Shown here: positions 5,947 through 59,820 of the stretch, in pieces
Layout: each line of letters starts with the position of its first letter
How positions within the stretch are numbered: position 1 is the stretch's first letter
From: an uncultured virus (IMG/VR IMGVR_UViG_3300037225_000630)
Lineage: Duplodnaviria; Heunggongvirae; Uroviricota; Caudoviricetes
Strand: one strand, 5' to 3'
Length of the DNA stretch: 64,000 nucleotides
IMG/VR virus record: IMGVR_UViG_3300037225_000630
Position numbers and translations under genes: made by a program
Notes under the pieces: generated by a model
What the model saw: only the letters and a program-made list of their open reading frames with translations
Database searches by the model: none
What the model was told of the DNA's origin: nothing

Positions 5947-7164
5947 ATGGCGAATAATGATCCTGGCTACTATGTATTGAATTTGTATGGCAAACTTATT
6001 CAAAAAGAATTCCCTGGTGTCACTGACTTTGGCATCGCCTTTCTGGCAGATTCCGAAGATTATGCGGAGGTAATTGAACCTATTGAAGAGGATGTGGGGG
6101 TACAACTTAATAAAGATGGAATGTATCCTATTCGTTCGGGTGTTGAAACGGAAAGCCCCTCTATAACTATCCATGCCCATTTTGATTACAATGATAATCT
6201 TCTTGATTCCATTATCCTTTCTGAAGTAAATCGTTGTTTTATTAAGGGGATGAAGTTTTTAAAAATAATCACTCCTTTATTTGTGGGGGACTCACATGAT
6301 ATTATCCTCGCTCCTAATGATATAATCAAAGATATAATTTTAGCAGCTAAACAGCTTAAAGACAATAAAATAAACACCGCTATCCATGCACCTCTGATTG
6401 ATTTGCCTTTAGATATGCTTAAAAAAGATATCCTAGACTTTCTTATTAATGAGGATTTTGCCAAGTTCTGTAAGCAGTACTCTATCAAACAGAAAAGAGG
6501 ATTTATTTTTTCCGGTCCCCCTGGGAATGGCAAGACCCTTTCTTTAGCTTGGTTAAAGTCCCAAGCTATACAAAATAAAATTGAATTTAGAGCGTATAAA
6601 TCTGCACGAGACTTTTTAGAGAATCAAGAGGGAGATAATCAAAATAAGCGAATCCTTGTATTCGAGGAGTTTGATACTTATGTACAAGAACGAAAACACA
6701 ATGAAGATGATGATAGGGAACAAACCAATTCTAATAATGTTTTGGGAACCCTATTACAAATCTTAGATGGCATTGAAGATGTATCTAATGCTGTTTTTAT
6801 CCTTACTACGAACTTTATCTCTACATTTGATTCTGCCTTGATGCGCCCCGGACGTATTGATAAGGTTATTACCTTTGAGCCTCCTACAGAAGAGAGTCAA
6901 AGAAAATTCTTACAAACATATCTTTCCGAGTATACTAATCATGGGATGATTTTGATATACTTGAAAAAGAAGAATGCTGCCATCTCTTATGCTATGTTGA
7001 AGGCTATTGTAGATAATATTCGTATTCAGGAGTTCTGGCTACAGCAGGAAAAGATAGAGGATACTCATATTGGGGATGAGGCTATCATGAAAATTATTAA
7101 TTCTGTACTTGACAATGCCAATAGGGGAAAAGAAGTGAAGAATACTGAGGAGTCTATACTATGA
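5947..7164 (+). CDS. AAA+ ATPase (classical AAA clade)
   Basis: Walker A GPPGNGKT, Walker B LVFEEFD, SRH TTN...DSALMRPGRID. Confidence 0.9.
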   Translation: MANNDPGYYVLNLYGKLIQKEFPGVTDFGIAFLADSEDYAEVIEPIEEDVGVQLNKDGMYPIRSGVETESPSITIHAHFDYNDNLLDSIILSEVNRCFIKGMKFLKIITPLFVGDSHDIILAPNDIIKDIILAAKQLKDNKINTAIHAPLIDLPLDMLKKDILDFLINEDFAKFCKQYSIKQKRGFIFSGPPGNGKTLSLAWLKSQAIQNKIEFRAYKSARDFLENQEGDNQNKRILVFEEFDTYVQERKHNEDDDREQTNSNNVLGTLLQILDGIEDVSNAVFILTTNFISTFDSALMRPGRIDKVITFEPPTEESQRKFLQTYLSEYTNHGMILIYLKKKNAAISYAMLKAIVDNIRIQEFWLQQEKIEDTHIGDEAIMKIINSVLDNANRGKEVKNTEESIL

Positions 7165-7712
7165 TAAAATTACATGGAACTACAATACTAGCAGTACGCT
7201 ATAATGGGCGTACCACTATGGCTGCTGATGGACAGGCTACTGCTGGAGATATAGTGTTAAAATCTAATGTACGTAAAATCAGGAAGTTCCTTGATGGAAA
7301 AATTATAGTAGGCTTTGCTGGTAGTGTAGCTGACGCTACCTCACTATTAGATTTCTTTGAAAAGAAAATAAATACTACTAAAAACATGGAACGTGCTGCT
7401 GTAGCTTTAGCTAAAGAATGGAGGACAAATAGAATATTTGGTAAACTAGAAGCAGAATTGCTTTTAGCAGATAAGGATAATATTCTTCTTCTTTCCGGAT
7501 CAGGAGATGTCATTGAAGCTGAAAATAATAGTCTTGCTATTGGCTCTGGAGGACAATATGCTCTAGCTGCTTCAAAAGCATTAATGTATGCTTATAATGC
7601 TTTTGATATTCCAGAAAATGCTAGTCTAATTGCACGTAAATCTTTAGAAATAGCCTCTGAAATCTGTATTTATACTAATAATAATATTATTGTGGAGGAA
7701 GTAATTGGCTAA
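7161..7712 (+). CDS. hslV: ATP-dependent protease peptidase subunit HslV
   Basis: HGTTILAVR, AADGQAT, GFAGSVADA, AIGSGG, ICIYTN. Confidence 0.95.
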   Translation: MIKLHGTTILAVRYNGRTTMAADGQATAGDIVLKSNVRKIRKFLDGKIIVGFAGSVADATSLLDFFEKKINTTKNMERAAVALAKEWRTNRIFGKLEAELLLADKDNILLLSGSGDVIEAENNSLAIGSGGQYALAASKALMYAYNAFDIPENASLIARKSLEIASEICIYTNNNIIVEEVIG

Positions 7713-20838: not shown

Positions 20839-21978
20839 TTATTCATTCGCCTTGAAGCTATATACAGGCTTTAAAGTATACTTTATATCTACAGTATCCC
20901 CTATCAAATCCTGTATTTCCTCATAAGGCTTATAAGCCATTGGGGATTCATCAATAGTATCCTTAGAAACGCATGAAGTCCATATTCCCTTCATTGAATC
21001 CTCAAAGTCAGATAATTGTAATGATTTCTTTGCTACCTGCCTACCCATGATACGACCAGCACCATGAGGAGCACTGAAATTCCAGTCTGGATTGCCCTTT
21101 CCCGTGCCTATAATCAATCCATCTCGCATATTCCAAGGAATAATCACAGGCTCATTTAGCATAGCTGATATTGCTCCCTTACGGATAATTTCATGGTCAA
21201 GATCAATATAGTTATGGACAGACTCAACAGAACGACCATCACCATAGACTAAATCCATCTTCTCTTGAATCTGCTGTAATATATACTCTCGATTCTTATG
21301 AGCATAAATTTGAGCTATCATCATATCTGTCAAGTATCCTTGATAGTCCTCATCCTTTAAATACTCCAACCCATTCATGGTACCTTCAGTACCATGAGTT
21401 TTAGCCTTCGCTATAGATTGCCAGTAATTGGCAATCTTCAAACCAAAGTTACGAGAGCCTGAATGAACAGTAAGCCAGAGTAGGCCATCTTGATCCTTAT
21501 CTACCTCACAAAAATGGTTGCCTCCCCCACTCGATCCTAGTGAAGCCATAACTCGATTAAAATCCTGATCTTGCTTCTCACATATTTTTCTGACATCATC
21601 ATAGATGGAAGATTTCTTAAAATCTTTTTGAATCCATTCACCACCAGATTGAGAAGTATGTACATTGTGACCTGAAGGTACATAGGTATGAATGATGTCA
21701 TCAAGTTTCTGGAAATCTATATCCTTTTTTCCTATACATATAGAAGTGATTCCACACCCAATATCAACACCTATTAAATTTACTATTATTTTATTTGTAA
21801 GAGTTGCAGTATACCCTATGACACACCCTGCTCCTGCATGAACATCTGGCATAATACGAATTTTACTTCCAATAGAAACCTCATTATTTAGAAGAGCATA
21901 AATTTGAGATAAAGCTGACTGTTCCACATTATCATTATAAATGATAGCAGAATTGTATTTTCCACGAATTTCTAACAT
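20839..21978 (-). CDS. rtcB: RNA-splicing/repair ligase RtcB
   Basis: MPDVHAG, GVDIGCG, GGGNHF, HSGSR, HNY, RKGA, PHGAGR, DESPMAYK. Confidence 0.96.
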   Translation of the reverse strand: MLEIRGKYNSAIIYNDNVEQSALSQIYALLNNEVSIGSKIRIMPDVHAGAGCVIGYTATLTNKIIVNLIGVDIGCGITSICIGKKDIDFQKLDDIIHTYVPSGHNVHTSQSGGEWIQKDFKKSSIYDDVRKICEKQDQDFNRVMASLGSSGGGNHFCEVDKDQDGLLWLTVHSGSRNFGLKIANYWQSIAKAKTHGTEGTMNGLEYLKDEDYQGYLTDMMIAQIYAHKNREYILQQIQEKMDLVYGDGRSVESVHNYIDLDHEIIRKGAISAMLNEPVIIPWNMRDGLIIGTGKGNPDWNFSAPHGAGRIMGRQVAKKSLQLSDFEDSMKGIWTSCVSKDTIDESPMAYKPYEEIQDLIGDTVDIKYTLKPVYSFKANE

Positions 21979-32789: not shown

Positions 32790-34064
32790 TTATGCCTGTT
32801 CTTCTATATCGATAACCTCTTCTTCATGTGCCTTTGACTCCTTCAAGAGGAATGCTTCAGACTTCAGCTTGTAAGCCTCGATGTTCATACCCTCGATCCT
32901 GATAACGATACCCTCATCAGGGTTACCATCGCAATCTTCGGCCTTTTTTTCCAAATAATTAGCCTTCAATTCATTAATAAAATAGCTAACCCAATACTCA
33001 GGATTGGTAGGATTGGAGTATAGAGGGAAATCGGAAGCCTTGCCATAGTAGAATTCCTCTACCATAGGCACCTGAAGTTCTTCGCAGCGCTGTTTCATTG
33101 CTTGCCATGAATACTCATACACAGTACCATCAGTACCAGTAGCAGTAATCCTATAGACAGCAACTTTATACGTATTAGGTATACAACCATAACGATATCC
33201 CTTCTGGATAGCATTGCCAGAAGGGAGGAATCCCACTATCTCATAGTAGACAGTTTCACCAGCATGAAGTTTAGTTAGGAAATATTTTTTTCCAGCCTCA
33301 GTCCAGATATCTTCCTTGTAGAAGCCAGAAGTAGTAGCATCGTTCTTGACTACTGACCTGGATGCATAGAGATAATCGTACTCAGTATCCTGTATCTTTA
33401 TTCCTATACTCTTTGCTATTTTCTCCAGCAGGTTTAATTTCCTCTTTACTAGAGCATTAGCACAGATAGCTGAAGTTCCGTGTATTTTCCGACTGATACT
33501 GATTATCTGGTTAGGATTAAACTTATGTACATTTCGCAATAGTTGTGAAGTATCAATATGGAAATGAAACTGATCAGGGATTAGACGAGAAGTTTTCTTT
33601 ACTTTCCTTCCCTTCTTACCTTGAACCTGAATCTGCTTCTGTGGAGGCACATATTTGTGGCAGACATCAACACCATTAAGGGAAGTAAAACTATTCCCTT
33701 CCTCAAGATCAACATTGTAGGGCTTAAACTTGCCTACCCCTATTGCAAGCCCCAGTGAAATAGTATTTTTGAGTCTCACTACCTTTACCCGATTACCTTT
33801 GGATAAATAGCTCCCGATTGACTTAAACTCCTCCTTACCATAATCAGGAGATTGCTTATCTACTACCTTAATAAAATCTAAGTTTAATATCATATTGGAG
33901 TCAAAAAATACTACATTATTTTCTTCATAAAAATCATTTTTACCTACTACTACCTGCCCCTGCTCTATTCCCTCTAGGCTAAGTATAGCTTTGACAATGT
34001 TATCTGCTCCTACTATAGGTTCTATCCTACTAATTTTCATCACTACTGCTGTGTTATTCTGCAT
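32790..34064 (-). CDS. ATP-dependent RNA ligase (Rnl2/DRB0094-like)
   Basis: N-terminal IEPIVGADNI OB-like domain; motif I RKIHGTS; YYEIVG; DEGIVIR; YKLKS. Confidence 0.88.
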   Translation of the reverse strand: MQNNTAVVMKISRIEPIVGADNIVKAILSLEGIEQGQVVVGKNDFYEENNVVFFDSNMILNLDFIKVVDKQSPDYGKEEFKSIGSYLSKGNRVKVVRLKNTISLGLAIGVGKFKPYNVDLEEGNSFTSLNGVDVCHKYVPPQKQIQVQGKKGRKVKKTSRLIPDQFHFHIDTSQLLRNVHKFNPNQIISISRKIHGTSAICANALVKRKLNLLEKIAKSIGIKIQDTEYDYLYASRSVVKNDATTSGFYKEDIWTEAGKKYFLTKLHAGETVYYEIVGFLPSGNAIQKGYRYGCIPNTYKVAVYRITATGTDGTVYEYSWQAMKQRCEELQVPMVEEFYYGKASDFPLYSNPTNPEYWVSYFINELKANYLEKKAEDCDGNPDEGIVIRIEGMNIEAYKLKSEAFLLKESKAHEEEVIDIEEQA

Positions 34065-34995
34065 ATTTACTCCTTAAAAATAAAATTTTAGATTGGAAGA
34101 ATTCCCACCAATCTTTATCATTTCCTAAGAAATTATACTTAAAAAATTGATAATTGTCAATACCAATTTCTCGTAGAAGTGTTCTAATATTATGAATAGA
34201 AGCCTTCCCTACAGGGATATCTTTGTAAGAGACTCCCTTATTATTACTAAGATAATCTAGAACCTTTATTCTTATCTTTAGTGATTCTTTTTTGATATTG
34301 AACTGTCTTTTAAGGCTAACTTCTACTTTTTTATCCTTCATCACCTTAGCAGTTGTGATTCCATATATCTCTTCATATGTCTTTCCTCTACGAGCAACGC
34401 TCATTTTTTGCTTATCCTCATTAGTAAGATGATACCCATGATTCCCTCCATGGTGTATAGGGGGCTTATGCCCAATATTTTTTAAGGTTCTACTTATTTT
34501 AAGCTTGATAGCATCAGAACGATCCTTTCCATAAACTTCCTCAAAGGTCTTTCCTTTCAGATGTTTACCTAATTTTACCCTATTCTCAGGTAATTGATTA
34601 AAATGTTCTACCCCTAACTTTTGAGCAGATTTCTTTCTTTTCATAGCTTGTTTCTTATACAGTTCTTTTTTATTTTCTTCTGACCATCCTTCTAGCTTAT
34701 TACATTTCTCTCCACCACCAGTCATATTATAGCCAAAATCCCTATTAGTGGTGTTATATTGTTTTATCCAATACTGTTCCTTTTCACTACAATTCTCTTT
34801 ATTACACTCTTCCACTTGGTAAATAATAAAATTATCTATACCATATTTATTCATAGCATCATACAAAACTTGATTCTTTCTTCTAATCATGCATTTTTTA
34901 TGGGCACAAAATCTTTCTTCAATAGTTTTAGATGTTTGCCCTATATATTTTTTGTGGTTTATTATGTTCTCAATACAATAAATGAAATACGCCAT
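34054..34995 (-). CDS. GIY-YIG homing endonuclease
   Basis: FIYCIEN...YIGQT...GYN; repeated GKT(F/Y)EE(V/I)YG modules. Confidence 0.9.
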   Translation of the reverse strand: MAYFIYCIENIINHKKYIGQTSKTIEERFCAHKKCMIRRKNQVLYDAMNKYGIDNFIIYQVEECNKENCSEKEQYWIKQYNTTNRDFGYNMTGGGEKCNKLEGWSEENKKELYKKQAMKRKKSAQKLGVEHFNQLPENRVKLGKHLKGKTFEEVYGKDRSDAIKLKISRTLKNIGHKPPIHHGGNHGYHLTNEDKQKMSVARRGKTYEEIYGITTAKVMKDKKVEVSLKRQFNIKKESLKIRIKVLDYLSNNKGVSYKDIPVGKASIHNIRTLLREIGIDNYQFFKYNFLGNDKDWWEFFQSKILFLRSKYAE

Positions 34996-43033: not shown

Positions 43034-44818
43034 CTAAACCTCCAGAATCTGATATTTAGGTAACTCATAATCTGAACCTACGTTTAACACCTTTGTAGTT
43101 CCGTTTTTAGCAGTACCAGCAAAAGCACTATGACTATGACCATACAACATATAATCAACTTTGTCAAGATAATCTTCATACTTTAAATTAGCACCGAAAT
43201 ATTGAGGTTCTTGAAGTTTACCAAAAGGACCCTGTGCACTTCTAGATTTCCAATCATTCTCAGCATCCTCTGCAATAAAGCCAAAATGAGTTACTAACAT
43301 TGTTATATTCCCTTTGTCTTTAGCCTCTTTCAGACTCTGTATGACTTCCCCAAATTGAAAATGAGAGCGTTTCTGTAACCATTCCATACCTAACGTCTGG
43401 AATCCAGGAATATAGTTTTTATCATTAGTGTAAACATCATCTCTGTACCATCCATCGAAACCTTGAATGAGTAAAGTTTTCTTTTCCTCTTGTAATTCCA
43501 TACCATCAAAAAGATAAACAATATCAAACTTCTTTAATATCTCCATATTCTGTAAATATACTTCATAGGGGTTTTTAGGAGAAATATATGGAATATCAGT
43601 AGATACTGTTTTAGGCAAACTCCAACAATTACCAGTGAAATAAGTAGTTCCTCTTCTTCTTACCATAAAGTTTGTTAGAGGTACTTCTAAGCACCATACT
43701 GTTTGTTTCTGCTCAATAAGCACATTATGATAAGTAGCATCAAATTGAACTGAATCTTTATTTGTAATATATAGTCTTGGATCTCCTCTTGAATCAATTT
43801 TGTATAAAGTTCTTCTATTATGAAGAAGGCATAAAATCTGAAAATTTTCCAAAAATTCTTCAGTACCATAAAGCATATAACTTTCACCACAGGTAGATTT
43901 AGAGGCATTAGCCTGTAAAACTGAAATTAAAAATAATTCAAATTGTCTATCACTTAAGGAATACACCCAATCAGGAAATATTTTTGTATAGAGATATTTA
44001 GAAAAATCTTTAGCTGAAGCATTAGATAATATTATTTCTTTTTGTGGCAAGCATTTTTTAATTAATTTTTTACCACATATTTCTTGTATGTTTCTATTTC
44101 TCTCATAAATAGTATAAGTATAATGTAAAGAAGTAAGAATAGTGAGTATATTATCAATAGGTTTTGATTGATAGATAATATACTGTCCTGTATGTGTATC
44201 TTTTTTTCTTCCAATATATCCATCAGTGAGTATCCATGCTGCTAATTGGATAATTCCATCGGGTATATTATAGTCTTCTTTTTTTTCTGTGGCACATGAC
44301 TTTATTTTTATTCTTCCCTTTATATTCTTTGCAGGAAGATAGTCATATTCTTTAAACTCTCCTTTCTTTCTAGTAGAACACAATACTCTATGTCCTTCAG
44401 TTCCAACAAAAGAGTATTGCTTTACTTGAGTAGATAGTACTTTATCGGTTTCTCTAATAATGATATTATTTATTTTATCCCATTGTCCTTTATCTTCTTG
44501 TATATTATAGCTATAAATACTATCTTCTTTGCTAATGAAGGAGTAGTTAACCCACCCTCTTTTAGTTAAAAGTTCGGTTTCTCTATCAAGACAGTCATGA
44601 TTCCCCATAATAGTTCCAATAGGTAAATCCTTACCTAGTCTATCTCTAACTGTTTTCCAGTAGTTATAGCGATCAGCAAAAGAGACTGAGCCCCAGTCTC
44701 CACAGTGAATAAGAGCATCTGCTTTCTCTTCTTTCATGTTTTGGAGCATGACTAAATTAGCCTGGTCGCCTTTGACTGAGAAGCCCCAGTGCGTATCTGT
44801 TGTCACCATAATCTTCAT
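43034..44818 (-). CDS. calcineurin-like metallophosphoesterase containing an intein
   Basis: DTHWG, HCGD, GNHD, VTH, YGHSH motifs split by an intein. Confidence 0.9.
   Translation of the reverse strand: MKIMVTTDTHWGFSVKGDQANLVMLQNMKEEKADALIHCGDWGSVSFADRYNYWKTVRDRLGKDLPIGTIMGNHDCLDRETELLTKRGWVNYSFISKEDSIYSYNIQEDKGQWDKINNIIIRETDKVLSTQVKQYSFVGTEGHRVLCSTRKKGEFKEYDYLPAKNIKGRIKIKSCATEKKEDYNIPDGIIQLAAWILTDGYIGRKKDTHTGQYIIYQSKPIDNILTILTSLHYTYTIYERNRNIQEICGKKLIKKCLPQKEIILSNASAKDFSKYLYTKIFPDWVYSLSDRQFELFLISVLQANASKSTCGESYMLYGTEEFLENFQILCLLHNRRTLYKIDSRGDPRLYITNKDSVQFDATYHNVLIEQKQTVWCLEVPLTNFMVRRRGTTYFTGNCWSLPKTVSTDIPYISPKNPYEVYLQNMEILKKFDIVYLFDGMELQEEKKTLLIQGFDGWYRDDVYTNDKNYIPGFQTLGMEWLQKRSHFQFGEVIQSLKEAKDKGNITMLVTHFGFIAEDAENDWKSRSAQGPFGKLQEPQYFGANLKYEDYLDKVDYMLYGHSHSAFAGTAKNGTTKVLNVGSDYELPKYQILEV
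43628..44593 (-). mobile_element. intein (322 aa) with LAGLIDADG-like domain
   Basis: GNHD|CLDRETELLT...TEGHRV...AAWILTDG...VWCLEVP...FMVRR...FTGN|C. Confidence 0.9.
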
Positions 44819-44871
44819 AGTTATAGTATACAGATAAAAATACTAAATGTCAATATCTTTTTTTACATTGA

Positions 44872-44993
44872 TGGAGAGTTCGGGTTTGGCCCCGAGTCTT
44901 AAACTAATGCATCCGTTTAAGGAACAGACCTGTTCGATTTTTAGGCATATCCGTTAGGTCTAATCATCAGCTTAATCGAATCAACAACTCCCC
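44872..44993 (-). ncRNA. mini-tmRNA-like RNA (tRNA-like domain with only a 55-nt interior)
   Basis: Acceptor GGGGAGT/ACTCTCC with G3.U70 and A73; GATTCGA D-loop equivalent; 11-bp helix 2; GAC linker; T-arm. Confidence 0.8.
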
Positions 44994-45003
44994 TTGTATT
45001 AAT

Positions 45004-45032
45004 ATTATACTTTACATTATTACTAATGTCAA
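45004..45032 (-). promoter_or_regulatory. consensus sigma70 promoter of the mini-tmRNA
   Basis: TTGACA-17 nt-TATAAT, 10 nt upstream of the predicted mature 5' end. Confidence 0.85.
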
Positions 45033-47530
45033 GCCACTTTCTCCCATGGTCCCATGCTAAACAAATGATCAAAATCTATATAAAGTCCCTGTTTATTTTC
45101 TCTTTGTAAAGTTACTCCGTCTATATATGTTTTTAAAACTTCATATTGTTCCTGATTAGCATCTCGTATTAAGTCTCCCACAACTACTTCTTTTATATCT
45201 ACTGGTGCCCATTGAACAGGACCAAACGTATCGTTTAGGTTTTCTTCAGCACCTTTTCTTTGGGGTTTGTAATAATAATTAGGATATTCAGCAAATAACC
45301 TAGAATTATATACAGCAGAAGTACCATCATTCCAGTCAATATCTACATCATCACCCTCAATATTTTTAATTATACCAGTACTCTTATTGTATGCATAATC
45401 AGGTACAGCTTTATCATAATACATAGAAATATCCCCAAAAGTAAGATTATCAGTATCTGTTATTAGAATCCAGCCATCATCAGCAGGATCATACTCAGAT
45501 TCAATCTCATTATAGTCTGAAAGAATAAGCAATCGTGGTATTCCCGCAGATAGTAAGTCTTCATTAGTAATATCATTATCACTCCATTTAACTCTTATTG
45601 GGCTGCTATACTCAGGATTAAAAGAAAGTATTGTAGCAGTAAGAGTATATATATCATCCTCTGGGATAGAGTTTTGGAATACATAGTCAGGATTCCATCC
45701 TATTGTCATTCCTACTTTAACATTTTTCATAGTGAGAGGTATATTTTTAAGAGGAGAAGTAGTTTCTTCTTTAGGAACTAATAATTCAAACTTTCTTTTC
45801 CCTTCTTTTAGTAATTCTATTATATCATAAGCATCATAAGGAGTTTCTGTATTAGTAGATGGAGTCTCATCATACTTAATAGATACAGTTAATCCTGTAT
45901 TCTTTGTTATTACACCTGTGTATTCTTTATTCTCTAGGTTAGTAAATATAATTTTTTTACCCACTTCAAACTCATCAATAGTATAAATCTGTTTTCTTAT
46001 TAACCCTTCATCCCCTACTTGTAATTCATTAGTCGTTTTCTTTTTATTATCTTTATTTTTGGAAGGTTCAGCAAATATAAATGTAGACATTCCCCCTACT
46101 TTATCCCACCAAATAGAATGAGTATCATTTCCTTTTTCCCATTTAATTGATATATATCCAGGTTCTAGTTTTATTACCTCTCCTACTTTTTTATTTTCTA
46201 TTTCTGTAGCAGGATTATATTGCACCATATCCCCTATACTAACATTCTCTGGCGTAACTGGTATTGATTTTTTAGATGTAGTGTTCTCAGTAGTATCCTC
46301 TATCTCCAATGTATTTTCAGGAGCATAAAATAAAATAGGTTGATGAATAGGTTGATGAATTGAATTATTAGCTACAACAAAATAATACTCGGAGAAATAA
46401 GCCTCTCCTAATCCTTCCCAATATACCCTAAGCTTAGGACTAGCTTCAGTAATTTGTCCAACTTTACCTTCATATTGTTTTAAATTAGGTTTAATTACTA
46501 TATAATCAGGATTTAAAATAACATCTTTTCCTACTTTAACAGTAGAAGAAGTAACAGGAACTTTTATTTCCTTTTTGGCTCCCTGTACTGCTTTGCCTTG
46601 AATACTTTGTTTTATAGTTGCTATTACCTTTTTTTCTTCTGGTGGGAGTATAGTATCCTCATATTTATATTTGCTTACATATGCAACTACTGGTTGTAAC
46701 TGTGTTGATACTTTATCATAAAATGCTTTTAATGATGTATTATTTCGTTTCCAATCCAACTCATCTTTTATCCATCCAAAACTACCATTTTTTGAGAATT
46801 TTTCCAGTTTATTGAATACAATTCCTGTGTTATGCTCTAAATCATAAGCATGGTCACAATAAATTATTTTTTCTCCAATTTTTTTTGCTCTAAGTAAATC
46901 CAACATACATTGTGCTATTTTTTGCCACGCATGTCCACCAAATGCTCCATTCCATCCTTCATCATCATCAAACATCTCTACGAATACTATAGCTATATCT
47001 GTATCGGAATAATTCAGAGCACGTTGAGTAGCTATTACAGCCTTGAATTGGTTTAAATATTTTCCTGAATCTTTATTTATGGGAAACCGAGAGTTACGTT
47101 TATTCAAGTCTAAACGATGATTAAATTTAGTATAAGGACTAACATTGTCCGCCCCTGAGGCATTATAAAAAAGAGGAAAGATTGAAAGATATTTTACTAG
47201 GAACTTAAAAGTGCGAGGAGAATAATGTTCTTTTAGTGCTTCTTGTGCTTCTTCAGGGGTACTTTTTCTGGCAGCGCTTTTTAATGCATTACAATATTCT
47301 GTAATGTGTTTTAGTTCAGCAGAGCAACAATATTTCAGGGATTTTATTAAAAACTTTGAATGAAGGTCAACACAGTCTTTGACAGCTTCTTTCATTACCC
47401 AATCAACAACATCATCCTTAAAGTCAGTACCATAGACATAGCCTACCATAAAATAAAAGTCTATCATTATTTGTAAAGGGTCTTTAGGCTGATGGTAAAC
47501 AAACTGAGAAAAAATTTCTTGTATCCTCAT
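45029..47530 (-). CDS. large hypothetical protein with C-terminal KOW/SH3-like repeats
   Basis: Repeated VKVG/IGD...G.I...V.W.DG units after a helical N-terminal domain. Confidence 0.65.
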   Translation of the reverse strand: MRIQEIFSQFVYHQPKDPLQIMIDFYFMVGYVYGTDFKDDVVDWVMKEAVKDCVDLHSKFLIKSLKYCCSAELKHITEYCNALKSAARKSTPEEAQEALKEHYSPRTFKFLVKYLSIFPLFYNASGADNVSPYTKFNHRLDLNKRNSRFPINKDSGKYLNQFKAVIATQRALNYSDTDIAIVFVEMFDDDEGWNGAFGGHAWQKIAQCMLDLLRAKKIGEKIIYCDHAYDLEHNTGIVFNKLEKFSKNGSFGWIKDELDWKRNNTSLKAFYDKVSTQLQPVVAYVSKYKYEDTILPPEEKKVIATIKQSIQGKAVQGAKKEIKVPVTSSTVKVGKDVILNPDYIVIKPNLKQYEGKVGQITEASPKLRVYWEGLGEAYFSEYYFVVANNSIHQPIHQPILFYAPENTLEIEDTTENTTSKKSIPVTPENVSIGDMVQYNPATEIENKKVGEVIKLEPGYISIKWEKGNDTHSIWWDKVGGMSTFIFAEPSKNKDNKKKTTNELQVGDEGLIRKQIYTIDEFEVGKKIIFTNLENKEYTGVITKNTGLTVSIKYDETPSTNTETPYDAYDIIELLKEGKRKFELLVPKEETTSPLKNIPLTMKNVKVGMTIGWNPDYVFQNSIPEDDIYTLTATILSFNPEYSSPIRVKWSDNDITNEDLLSAGIPRLLILSDYNEIESEYDPADDGWILITDTDNLTFGDISMYYDKAVPDYAYNKSTGIIKNIEGDDVDIDWNDGTSAVYNSRLFAEYPNYYYKPQRKGAEENLNDTFGPVQWAPVDIKEVVVGDLIRDANQEQYEVLKTYIDGVTLQRENKQGLYIDFDHLFSMGPWEKVA

Positions 47531-47843: not shown

Positions 47844-47914
47844 TGAGCCTATAGGGAATTGAACCCTAGTTCCCGTGTTTAGAGGACGGTGCTTTACCAC
47901 TGAGCTATAGGCCC
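47844..47914 (-). tRNA. amber suppressor tRNA (CUA)
   Basis: Canonical cloverleaf; anticodon arm CCGTC-CTCTAAA-CACGG (C31/C39 mismatch). Confidence 0.82.
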
Positions 47915-53770: not shown

Positions 53771-53871
53771 CGAGCCGAGCAGGAATCGAACCTACAACAA
53801 GGTGGTTACTAAAGTACTCTCGTAAGAAAGTATTTTACAGCCACCCGCTCTACTGTTGGAGCTATCGGCTC
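53771..53871 (-). tRNA. tRNA-Asn(GUU) with 28-nt intron-like insert (53809..53836)
   Basis: GAGCCGA/TCGGCTC acceptor, G73, GGTGG-CTGT[insert]TAA-CCACC. Confidence 0.85.
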
Positions 53872-55449: not shown

Positions 55450-56037
55450 ATTCTCCTATTTAGAAAAAATATGAAGTAATCCTATCAATGCATAGATACA
55501 TATAACTATACCTATTATACCTATTACAATCAACAATGGACTTAACACCCACCACCAGCTCCAAGCAATAGCTTTTGTAAGTTTTAATACAACAAATATA
55601 ATAGTTAATATTGTTGTCCATGGTAAATAACAAACATTCTTTGTTTCCATTCTAAGCTCCTTATTCCTTTTCCCAAAATTTAACTTGTATGCTGTCTATA
55701 AGAACTTTCTTTGCTTGTTCCTTTATATCTTCATTAAAAGGAACCTCATTAAGAGGAATTTTAGGATAAGGATAACGTCCAGAGAGTCTATCATATCCTC
55801 GTTGAACACACCAGTGATGCCTTTTTGTTTGTTTGGATACTTCATAATATCCATCCAGGTAAAGAGTATTATTATTATCATAAAACCAAAAATTGTATTG
55901 ATACTGATGAAGATCATCAACAGGAATAATAACAGATATGTTCATTTTCTTCTCCTTGTAAAAAGTATGGTTTTATCCTCCAGCTATCTCATATATAATC
56001 TACCATATTTCATTAAAAATGTCAAGTAGAAAAGATA

Positions 56038-56067: not shown

Positions 56068-56378
56068 ACTGATGCTGCTGGATTTTAGCAACCACGCCAA
56101 TATTACGCTCAGGGCCTTCAACAGACACCCATCTCAGGTTGTTCCCCTAATCCTTGGTAAGGACTCGACCTCTCCACCCAGCAGCACTAGTCGTTCGCAG
56201 CAATCCCATATCCACCCTCTAGATTAGGTAGGTAATAATAGTATGGGAACTATTCCCGTAGGGTTGGACTTAGCCCTAATAAATATGGTACTTATAGTCA
56301 ATAGCATGGCCTTATGCCTCGTACAAGCTACAACCCTATAAAGAACTTAACTAATACAATCCCTCACTATTTACCTCC

Positions 56379-59244: not shown

Positions 59245-59315
59245 TGGAGCTAGAGACTTTGACATCTCGACCTGTAGAATGCAGATCTACCGCTCTACAA
59301 CTGAGCTATAGCCCC
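59245..59315 (-). tRNA. tRNA-Ala(UGC), C33, reduced D and T loops
   Basis: GGGGCTA/TAGCTCC with G3.U70; loop TCTGCAT; T-loop GTCAAA. Confidence 0.85.
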
Positions 59316-59720: not shown

Positions 59721-59820
59721 TGGGACTAATAGGAATCGAACCTACCACAACCGGCTTTTTCAATACTCTATTAAAAAGTATTCAAAAAGGCCGGTGCCTA
59801 AACCAATCGGCCTTAGTCCC
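59721..59820 (-). tRNA. tRNA-Lys(UUU) with 27-nt intron-like insert (59758..59784)
   Basis: GGGACTA/TAGTCCC acceptor, A73, CCGGC-CTTTT[insert]AA-GCCGG. Confidence 0.85.

What the first reader, a model, noticed from the sequence alone, without database searches (positions are those of the whole stretch)
44872..45032. 122-nt mini-tmRNA: intact alanyl tRNA-like domain with almost no mRNA-like domain
Seen: GGGGAGT-TGTT-GATTCGA-TTAAGCTGATG-[55 nt]-CATTAGTTTAA-GAC-TCGGG-GCCAAA-CCCGA-ACTCTCC-A, behind a perfect TTGACA-17-TATAAT promoter. G3.U70, A73, the stemless D-loop ending in ATTCGA, the 11-bp helix and the GAC linker match the SmpB-binding tRNA-like domain of tmRNA. The interior has only a TAGACCT/AGGTCTG helix and no clear degradation tag. 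Known: bacterial tmRNAs are about 350 nt, and tag-less versions are known from some mitochondria. Inference: either an SmpB decoy that blocks host trans-translation, or a rescue RNA that takes the peptide without tagging it, possibly working with the phage Pth2. Its 6-nt T-loop GCCAAA resembles GTCAAA in the phage tRNA-Ala.
Basis: partly seen in the sequence, partly recalled or inferred. Interest (0 to 1): 0.85.

Follow-up and report, generated by a model that had tools for sequence, protein, structure and literature searches.

The report
Phage mini-tmRNA with conserved inner module
A large uncultured phage carries a real, conserved 122-base RNA gene that copies the alanine-accepting, tRNA-like head of the bacterial ribosome-rescue RNA (tmRNA) plus a small conserved inner module; cut-down phage tmRNAs are already known, and this longer form most likely competes with the host's rescue system, with a smaller chance that it is a one-codon tagging RNA.

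Summary
In detail: a 122-nt tmRNA-like gene at 44872-44993 (-) behind a 12/12 sigma-70 promoter. I found three distinct 122-nt versions in related large phages (84-95 of 122 identical; the most distant phage has a 67% identical capsid). 19 of 34 base pairs change on both sides, so it is a conserved RNA, not a recent ssrA deletion. One loop holds A-N3-GCC-UAA, a possible Ala-Ala tag, but with a weak resume context. A covarying hairpin holds a natural-scoring resume-like word but no conserved stop. The T-loop has six bases. Best reading: an alanylated, SmpB-binding competitor of host tmRNA (0.45); one-codon tagger (0.22). Transcription, charging and SmpB binding were not shown; the host is unknown. 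The scan found this before: e1-5831814 (same sequence) and e1-5732520 (the distant member). Verdict: new variant of a known kind, interest 0.45.

The parts
45004..45032 (-). sigma-70-type promoter, 12/12 consensus; the -35 box overlaps the stop codon of the upstream 833-aa ORF
   Evidence: 10/12 site at the same place in the sister phage; no such site in the 1.4 kb around the distant member
44872..44993 (-). 122-nt mini-tmRNA gene (whole RNA; CCA not encoded)
44987..44993 (-). acceptor stem 5' strand (nt 1-7, with G3)
   Evidence: pairs 5-7 change on both sides, pairs 1-4 including G3.U70 never vary
44976..44986 (-). stemless D-loop (nt 8-18), one G short of the E. coli GG
   Evidence: invariant in 3 of 3; E. 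coli sequence
44965..44975 (-). helix P2a 5' strand (nt 19-29), pairs with 44899-44909
   Evidence: 7 of 11 pairs change on both sides
44956..44961 (-). inner helix 5' strand (nt 33-38), pairs with 44926-44931
   Evidence: 4 of 6 pairs change on both sides
44932..44955 (-). conserved 24-nt loop (nt 39-62) holding A44 and GCC-UAA
   Evidence: 19 of 24 columns invariant against 9 of 34 in the two P2 helices, Fisher p = 1.4e-4
44941..44946 (-). site A: GCC-UAA (nt 48-53), candidate one-codon reading frame (Ala-Ala tag), 4 nt after invariant A44 (44950)
   Evidence: invariant in 3 of 3; resume-context score -1.5/-3.1/2.7 bits, below the natural range 4.8-12.1
44912..44923 (-). 3-bp hairpin (nt 71-82) with invariant loop UUAAAC; site B, a resume-signal-like or PK1-loop-like word
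   Evidence: the only two variable columns of 67-85 are the pair 71-82; score 8.1 bits in 3 of 3, no stop in 2 of 3
44896..44898 (-). GAC linker (nt 96-98)
   Evidence: invariance is forced by the search patterns for the distant member
44880..44895 (-). T-arm: 5-bp stem and 6-nt loop (GCCAAA here, GUCAAA in the other two)
   Evidence: 4 of 5 pairs change on both sides
44872..44879 (-). acceptor stem 3' strand with U70 and discriminator A73
44825..44853 (-). second promoter-like site (11/12) right behind the RNA, before the metallophosphoesterase gene; no terminator found between them
   Evidence: also in the sister phage
59245..59315 (-). phage tRNA-Ala(UGC) with the same odd elbow (single G in D-loop, 6-nt GUCAAA T-loop)
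   Evidence: the distant phage's tRNA-Ala has an ordinary T-loop
48596..48958 (-). Pth2 peptidyl-tRNA hydrolase, possible but unproven partner
   Evidence: PF01981 E 3e-16; relatives at 72% and 35% in the two other phages

Best explanation
A phage-encoded, functional cut-down tmRNA of the DS6A 'TLD-only' kind, in a longer form. It is made from its own strong promoter (or from a tRNA array in the distant phage), trimmed and given CCA like the phage tRNAs, charged with alanine through G3.U70/A73, and binds the host's SmpB. It then competes with host tmRNA for SmpB and for stalled ribosomes, so less ssrA tagging occurs during infection. The conserved inner module is under sequence selection; it most likely makes further contacts with SmpB or the ribosome (the hairpin loop copies the word that sets the reading frame in real tmRNAs) rather than being read as a tag. 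Shown: the sequence, the fold, selection on it, absence of a pseudoknot ring. Inferred: transcription, processing, charging, SmpB binding, inhibition and the role of the inner module.
For: Fold: 101 of 102 cells paired, 19 of 34 pairs change on both sides, 0 of 500 shuffles reach it, slid controls 31-50% paired; RNAalifold finds the same helices unaided. G3.U70 stays fixed while neighbouring pairs 5-7 change. Same length in phages whose shared proteins are mostly 25-49% identical, capsid 67%. No SmpB match in 4 of 4 records, so a host SmpB would be needed (records 13-71% complete). Precedent: PMC4131195 passage on DS6A and inhibition 'perhaps by titrating SmpB'; PMC2481249 Discussion reports that TLD plus SmpB alone enters ribosomes and transfers Ala in vitro. 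Neither candidate frame is a good tag: site A has a poor context, site B lacks a stop in 2 of 3 and lies 2 nt before helix P2a. DS6A's RNA also has a natural-range resume-like word without a stop (5.4 bits).
Against: A pure decoy does not need a 24-nt loop with an invariant Ala codon and stop. The elbow is non-standard (6-nt T-loop starting with G, one D-loop G missing), and PMC3968760 says D-loop/T-loop contacts are needed for SmpB binding; all 25 of 29 natural tmRNAs that my script parsed have a 7-nt loop starting with U. A phage with many tRNAs, RtcB, an RNA ligase, Pth2 and a deformylase looks built to sustain translation, not to block rescue (inference). No expression data cover the gene. 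Only three distinct sequences; the host is unknown.
Confidence: 0.45

Rival explanations
1. A complete but minimal tmRNA: after taking the peptide on its alanine, the ribosome resumes at GCC (nt 48-50), adds a second alanine and terminates at UAA, leaving an Ala-Ala C-terminus. With only one codon to read, the RNA needs no pseudoknot ring.
For: A44-N3-GCC-UAA is invariant in 3 of 3 apart from the -3 base, and the distant member was found with a pattern that did not use the interior. Among the invariant interior adenines, A44 alone gives the same stopped product in all three. An A-N3-GCN-stop arises in 1.5-2.0% of loop shuffles (motif chosen after seeing it). GCC-UAA is predicted unpaired (0.96-1.0 in two members, 0.65-0.97 in the third). 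A at -4, U at -1 and GC at +1/+2 fit natural tmRNAs (30/30, 20/30, 26/30). In E. coli U85G is harmless and A86 sets the frame (PMC2481249). 25 bacterial tmRNAs with an Ala-Ala tag are reported (PMC11915505); the terminal Ala-Ala is the main ClpXP signal (PMC7652416).
Against: Context score is below all 29 natural sites: G at -5 where 29 of 30 have U, and A at -3 in only 1 of 3 where 27 of 30 have A. A site that good followed by a stop arises in 13%, 15% and 3% of interior shuffles. The -1 triplets score 0 (UAU, this copy), 40 and 90% survival at high stringency in the E. coli table. No synonymous change (GCN or stop swap) is seen. Only 9 nt follow the stop before the helix, whereas loading in E. 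coli is helped by a downstream strand on uS3 (PMC13692277, simulation). The same letters resemble the H2d/PK1 words of E. coli tmRNA, so they may be inherited words; the loop-to-natural-tmRNA alignment test was mixed (p 0.62, 0.22, 0.035).
Confidence: 0.22
2. Tag-less rescue: the RNA takes the stalled peptide, adds one or a few alanines without a template, and the peptidyl-RNA drops off or is hydrolysed (phage Pth2 or host release factors), freeing ribosomes while sparing phage proteins from the full host tag.
For: TLD plus SmpB makes polyalanine in vitro (PMC2481249 citing Shimizu and Ueda). Pth2 is in all three phages and in 1 of 5 records with other mid-size TLD RNAs (the only complete one). 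Tag-less organellar tmRNAs are thought to help with broken mRNAs (PMC11915505). Pth acts on dropped-off peptidyl-tRNA (PMC8012679).
Against: Pth2 is not adjacent (3.6-18 kb away) and its background rate in large phages was not measured. It does not explain the conserved loops. Drop-off of long peptides is unlikely (recalled, no call).
Confidence: 0.17
3. A tRNA-like RNA that works outside trans-translation, for example a decoy or backup against host tRNA-cutting defences, or a ligand for AlaRS or another protein. The odd elbow shared with the phage tRNA-Ala would reflect that pressure.
For: Both alanine acceptors of this phage share the single-G D-loop and GYCAAA T-loop. The gene lies among tRNA genes, with RtcB and an RNA ligase in the window.
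Against: The distant phage keeps the GUCAAA loop in the mini-RNA but has an ordinary T-loop in its tRNA-Ala. The invariant D-loop end and GAC linker are tmRNA features, not tRNA features.
Confidence: 0.1
4. A dead relic: a recent deletion of a full ssrA or an integration-site fragment.
For: One record of this phage is classed as a provirus; tmRNA gene fragments arise by island integration (PMC4131195).
Against: Both gene ends are present and pair; 19 of 34 pairs covary; no indel in 122 columns across three versions; promoter kept in the sister phage; no full tmRNA over cut-off in 4 of 4 records.
Confidence: 0.03

Closest known systems
'TLD only' tmRNA of mycobacteriophage DS6A (tmID 11587; PMC4131195 Table 2; JN698994, 80 nt read)
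   Same: Phage-encoded; 7-bp acceptor with G3.U70 and A73; stemless D-loop; short helix 2 closing on itself; no pseudoknot ring; no CCA-independent tag ORF of normal length.
   Different: 122 nt against 80; a three-way junction with a covarying hairpin and a conserved 24-nt loop holding GCC-UAA; 6-nt T-loop against DS6A's 7-nt loop; the family model does not hit DS6A at E <= 1.
Standard one-piece bacterial tmRNA (Rfam RF00023)
   Same: TRna-like domain, GAC linker and first helix of H2; words resembling the resume signal and PK1 loop.
   Different: 230-400 nt with four pseudoknots and a tag ORF (PMC3968760); none of that is here. The window copy is not hit; the distant member scores 28.4 bits (cut-off 47), which ordinary tRNAs can exceed (44.7 bits).
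Bacterial tmRNAs with a 2-aa Ala-Ala tag (25 sequences, e.g. Fermentibacter daniensis; PMC11915505)
   Same: Would give the same tag if site A is read.
   Different: Their length, fold and resume context could not be retrieved (supplement search for 3 terms found nothing), so no direct comparison was made.
Tag-less mitochondrial tmRNA (RF02544) and ~65-nt Mallomonadaceae plastid tmRNAs (PMC11915505)
   Same: Alanine-accepting head without a normal tag frame.
   Different: Organellar, usually permuted (mitochondria) or much shorter; no Rfam hit of this RNA to them.

Membership tests
standard tmRNA (RF00023) | 7-bp acceptor stem with G3.U70 and A73 | tested here: met
standard tmRNA (RF00023) | stemless D-loop ending in UCGA, helix 2a, GAC linker, 5-bp T-stem | tested here: met
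   natural examples
standard tmRNA (RF00023) | 7-nt T-loop beginning with U | tested here: not met
   6-nt GYCAAA in 3 of 3 (the distant member was selected for it); 25 of 29 natural loops parsed are 7 nt and start with U
standard tmRNA (RF00023) | pseudoknot ring, 230-400 nt | tested here: not met
   122 nt, simple three-way junction; size range from PMC3968760
standard tmRNA (RF00023) | tag frame: natural resume context, sense codons, stop | tested here: inconclusive
   site A has codon and stop but sub-natural context; site B has natural context but no conserved stop
standard tmRNA (RF00023) | model score over the gathering cut-off or ARAGORN call | tested here: not met
standard tmRNA (RF00023) | alanylation, SmpB binding, trans-translation | not testable with these tools
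   needs biochemistry
DS6A-type TLD-only tmRNA | intact TLD in a phage genome | tested here: met
   head, helicase, clamp-loader and tail genes in the records
DS6A-type TLD-only tmRNA | little more than the TLD (about 65-80 nt) | tested here: not met
   55-nt interior under stronger sequence conservation than the helices; DS6A 80 nt
DS6A-type TLD-only tmRNA | no tag reading frame | tested here: inconclusive
   invariant GCC-UAA with weak context
DS6A-type TLD-only tmRNA | inhibits host tmRNA when expressed | not testable with these tools
   reported for the known kind in PMC4131195 and PMC11915505
Ala-Ala-tag tmRNAs (Fermentibacter type) | single Ala codon followed by a stop, four bases after an A | tested here: met
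Ala-Ala-tag tmRNAs (Fermentibacter type) | same fold and resume context as those RNAs | not tested
   their sequences were not obtained
tRNA, including tRNA with an anticodon-loop insert | D-stem and 5-bp anticodon arm with 7-nt loop | tested here: not met
   no D-stem in the consensus fold; not called by ARAGORN with introns allowed or RF00005

The most novel reading that the evidence does not exclude
A 122-nt, pseudoknot-free but fully working tmRNA that reads a single codon from a closed loop and ends rescued proteins in Ala-Ala: about half the size of the smallest one-piece tagging tmRNAs described in the review seen, and a way for a phage to run its own ribosome rescue and rewrite the host's degradation tag using host SmpB.
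Probability: 0.22. Interest if true: 0.8.

Novelty: new variant of a known kind. Interest (0 to 1): 0.45.

Why it matters
Why phages carry cut-down tmRNAs is open. This family is a compact natural test case: evolution has kept a 122-nt scaffold with two invariant loops across phages whose proteins have diverged to 25-67% identity. If the loop is read, it shows that the pseudoknot ring and most of tmRNA are dispensable for template switching and termination, and that phages can change the tag on stalled proteins. If it is not read, the loops mark contacts that could make a stronger inhibitor of trans-translation than a bare tRNA-like domain. Either answer comes from one simple reporter experiment. 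Standard tools (ARAGORN, Rfam) miss the gene, so such RNAs are under-annotated.

Tried and rejected
Detection: ARAGORN -m at relaxed thresholds never called the element; Rfam cmscan gave no tmRNA hit on the window copy or the sister copy. The 28.4-bit RF00023 match on the distant member is not used as support, since tRNA-sized matches in a bacterial genome reach 44.7 bits. Homologue searches: no GenBank phage record covers 80% of either query (16 and 6 short matches); 0 matches in GTDB genomes to the family interior pattern; metagenomes 1 of 34 matches real and it is the distant member's own contig; viral scans gave family members in 1 of 1, 4 of 5, 4 of 6 and 4 of 17 matches, all the same three sequences. 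Searches returned other 103-136-nt TLD-type RNAs (L002-L005, L008/L010) that do not share the loops; none has a natural-range resume site followed by a stop. Expression: 3 RNA runs of one study were laid as contigs; run X1 holds five pieces of this phage with no differences (44370-44518, 44585-44735, 45553-45736, 55554-55822, 56068-56342) but none over the RNA; contigs cannot show absence, so this says nothing either way. Host: no own genome is held; one 12-kb contig with a 64% identical capsid lies in a MAG titled 'Eubacteriales bacterium', which has no match to the family model; too thin to name a host. No CCA-adding enzyme match in 4 records. Considered and dropped: a pseudoknot between the loop and nt 71-73 or 80-84 (broken in the distant member, where the hairpin covaries instead); antisense pairing to host tmRNA (longest match to the E. 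coli RNA 5-7 nt); protein-coding constraint (stops in all six frames of this copy); site B as a real tag start (no stop in 2 of 3).

Full report
1. Observation. The minus strand from 44993 to 44872 reads as described: 7-nt acceptor strand, 11-nt stemless D-loop, 11-bp helix, 55-nt interior, GAC, 5-bp T-stem with a 6-nt loop, acceptor strand and A73. The MFE fold recovers these helices (z -2.76, 2 of 200 shuffles as good). A 12/12 promoter ends 10 nt upstream; perfect copies number 2 in the window against 0.04 expected. CCA is not encoded, as for the 18 window tRNAs checked. No terminator-like site follows; a second promoter-like site does. ARAGORN and Rfam do not call the gene.

2. Setting. 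The window is part of a large tailed phage: 15 ARAGORN tRNAs plus 3 more from Rfam, Pth2, RtcB, RNA ligase, peptide deformylase, primase (13 further families; 63 ORFs scanned), and head, helicase and clamp-loader genes in overlapping records (76 ORFs scanned). No own genome is held. No SmpB, CCA-adding enzyme or tmRNA over cut-off was found in the 4 records searched each time, which are 13-71% complete.

3. Relatives. A Pth2 search found a syntenic sister phage (L012, Pth2 72% identical) with a 122-nt version at the same place and a 10/12 promoter. A pattern using only TLD features found a third version (L015 = L016 = L039) in a tRNA array of a 170-kb phage, with no sigma-70-like site in the 1.4 kb scanned. 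That phage shares 56 of 193 ORFs with ours at E < 1e-8, capsid 67%, most others 25-49%, Pth2 35%. The three RNAs align without gaps, 84, 85 and 95 of 122 identical. All other searches returned the same three sequences or chance matches. The patterns need exact matches, so more distant members may be missed.

4. Structure under selection. On the consensus fold 99% of 102 cells pair, 19 of 34 pairs change on both sides, 0 of 500 shuffles reach this, and slid controls pair 31-50%. RNAalifold predicts the same helices. With three sequences these are counts, not probabilities, but the effect is large. G3.U70 is fixed while pairs 5-7 change. This rules out a recent deletion or an integration-site fragment.

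5. The interior. It is a three-way junction: helix 33-38/63-68 (4 of 6 pairs covary) closing a 24-nt loop, and a 3-bp hairpin 71-73/80-82 whose closing pair accounts for the only two variable columns in 67-85. Unpaired columns are 51 of 58 invariant, paired ones 23 of 64; the loop is 19 of 24 against 9 of 34 for the P2 helices (p 1.4e-4). So the loops do something sequence-specific.

6. Is anything read? Taking every interior A as a possible frame-setting base, only A44 gives the same stopped product in all three: GCC then UAA, i.e. Ala-Ala with the charged alanine. Loop shuffles give such a motif in 1.5-2.0% of cases (chosen after seeing it). To test the context I took the 30 best of 57 tmRNA matches from 61 genomes of one phylum (centred on the MAG) plus E. 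coli; ARAGORN called 30 of 31, and I dropped L128, whose tag start looked miscalled, leaving 29. Natural sites score 4.8-12.1 bits. Site A scores -1.5, -3.1 and 2.7: it has A at -4, U at -1 and GCC, but G at -5 where 29 of 30 have U. A site that good followed by a stop appears in 13%, 15% and 3% of interior shuffles. The hairpin loop (site B, UUAAAC|GGW) scores 8.1 in all three (3% of shuffles) but has no stop in 2 of 3 and lies 2 nt before helix P2a; the same word is the PK1 loop in 5 of 29 natural RNAs and the resume signal in 9 of 29. The sample is from one phylum that may not be the host's. E. coli genetics cut both ways: G at -5 is harmless and the A at -4 dominates, but this copy's -1 triplet UAU gave no survival at high stringency (CAU 40%, AAU 90%; most dead triplets recovered at low stringency) (PMC2481249: abstract, Background with Table 1, first parts of Results and Discussion). 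The A is gripped by SmpB Tyr55/Tyr24 after translocation (PMC8363625, passages). A simulation finds that a downstream strand on uS3 speeds loading about 12-fold (PMC13692277, abstract and one section); a closed 24-nt loop offers little of that (inference). I therefore put the one-codon reading at 0.22, lower than my first guess of 0.40.

7. Elbow. The T-loop has six bases and starts with G, and the D-loop has one G where E. coli has two. The window's tRNA-Ala shares both traits; the distant phage's tRNA-Ala has an ordinary T-loop. D-loop/T-loop contacts are needed for SmpB binding (PMC3968760, passages), so binding must be measured. The G-C elbow pair looks retained (inference from position).

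8. Mechanism. Most likely (0.45) an alanylated, SmpB-binding RNA that competes with host tmRNA, the inner loops adding contacts. Rivals: one-codon Ala-Ala tagger (0.22), tag-less rescue with Pth2 (0.17), a role outside trans-translation (0.10), dead relic (0.03). Only the sequence, fold and selection are shown.

9. Known kinds. PMC4131195 (passages) lists DS6A as 'TLD only' and says a similar molecule strongly inhibits tmRNA, perhaps by titrating SmpB, citing Mao et al. 2009, which I did not read. PMC11915505 (passages and part 3 of 5) words this as the DS6A form itself being inhibitory, adds ~65-nt plastid forms, and reports 25 tmRNAs with an Ala-Ala tag; its one supplement gave no occurrence of three terms. 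The C-terminal Ala-Ala is the main ClpXP signal (PMC7652416, passages). PK1 can be cut down without loss of tagging, though the H2-PK1-linker segment has constraints (PMC4236655, passages). Pth background is from PMC8012679 (passages). The RNA fails the standard-tmRNA test (size, ring, T-loop, model score) and fails the 'little more than the TLD' feature of the DS6A form, but works like it on present evidence.

10. Novelty. Library searches found no paper on this form: 'phage' + 'mini-tmRNA' 0 papers; tmRNA + phage + tRNA-like domain + DS6A 2 papers, both above; listings showed nothing closer by title. The library lacks most subscription papers and the tmRNA database itself was not searchable. 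This scan has reported the same sequence (e1-5831814, which also raises a one-codon frame; I had noted it before seeing that entry) and the distant member (e1-5732520). Verdict: new variant of a known kind; interest 0.45; 0.8 if the single codon is really read.

Noticed in passing
window 53771-53871 and 59721-59820 (-): Two tRNA genes with 27-28-nt inserts in the anticodon loop that resemble each other and can form a hairpin (Rfam tRNA hits; ARAGORN intron calls). Similar long tRNA-like genes occur in L079 c1865-1978, L073 15155-15273 and L074 1772-1889. RtcB (20839-21978) and an RNA ligase (32790-34064) are in the window: possible spliced phage tRNAs.
   Followed up: no
window 59245-59315 (-): tRNA-Ala(UGC) with a 6-nt GUCAAA T-loop and a single-G D-loop, missed by ARAGORN, found by Rfam; shares its elbow with the mini-tmRNA.
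   Followed up: partly
window 47844-47914 (-); L012 3631-3702; L074 10189-10261: Amber (CUA) tRNA in all three related phages, although ORFs read normally under table 11.
   Followed up: no
window 43034-44818 (-): Metallophosphoesterase whose catalytic motif is followed by a long insert starting with Cys and ending Gly-Asn before Cys, intein-like (read from the translation; intein label recalled, not tested); same insert in L012 7397-9199.
   Followed up: no
window 5947-7712 (+): AAA ATPase next to a proteasome/HslV-type subunit: a possible phage-encoded protease that could bear on the fate of tagged proteins.
   Followed up: no
L002 2001-2123, L003 2001-2103, L004 2001-2105, L005 2001-2110 (-), L008 1501-1636 (-): Other phage TLD-type RNAs of 103-136 nt with normal T-loops and different interiors; L002 has what looks like a PK1 remnant; L008 and DS6A have natural-range resume-like words without a stop.
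   Followed up: partly
window 34132-34160 (-): The only other perfect TTGACA-17-TATAAT site, inside the end of the GIY-YIG ORF just before the RNA ligase gene.
   Followed up: no
L012 2146-2979 and 9217-10158: The sister phage has GIY-YIG-like ORFs inserted after Pth2 and after the metallophosphoesterase, where the window has none (family label from the sequence motif, not scanned).
   Followed up: no
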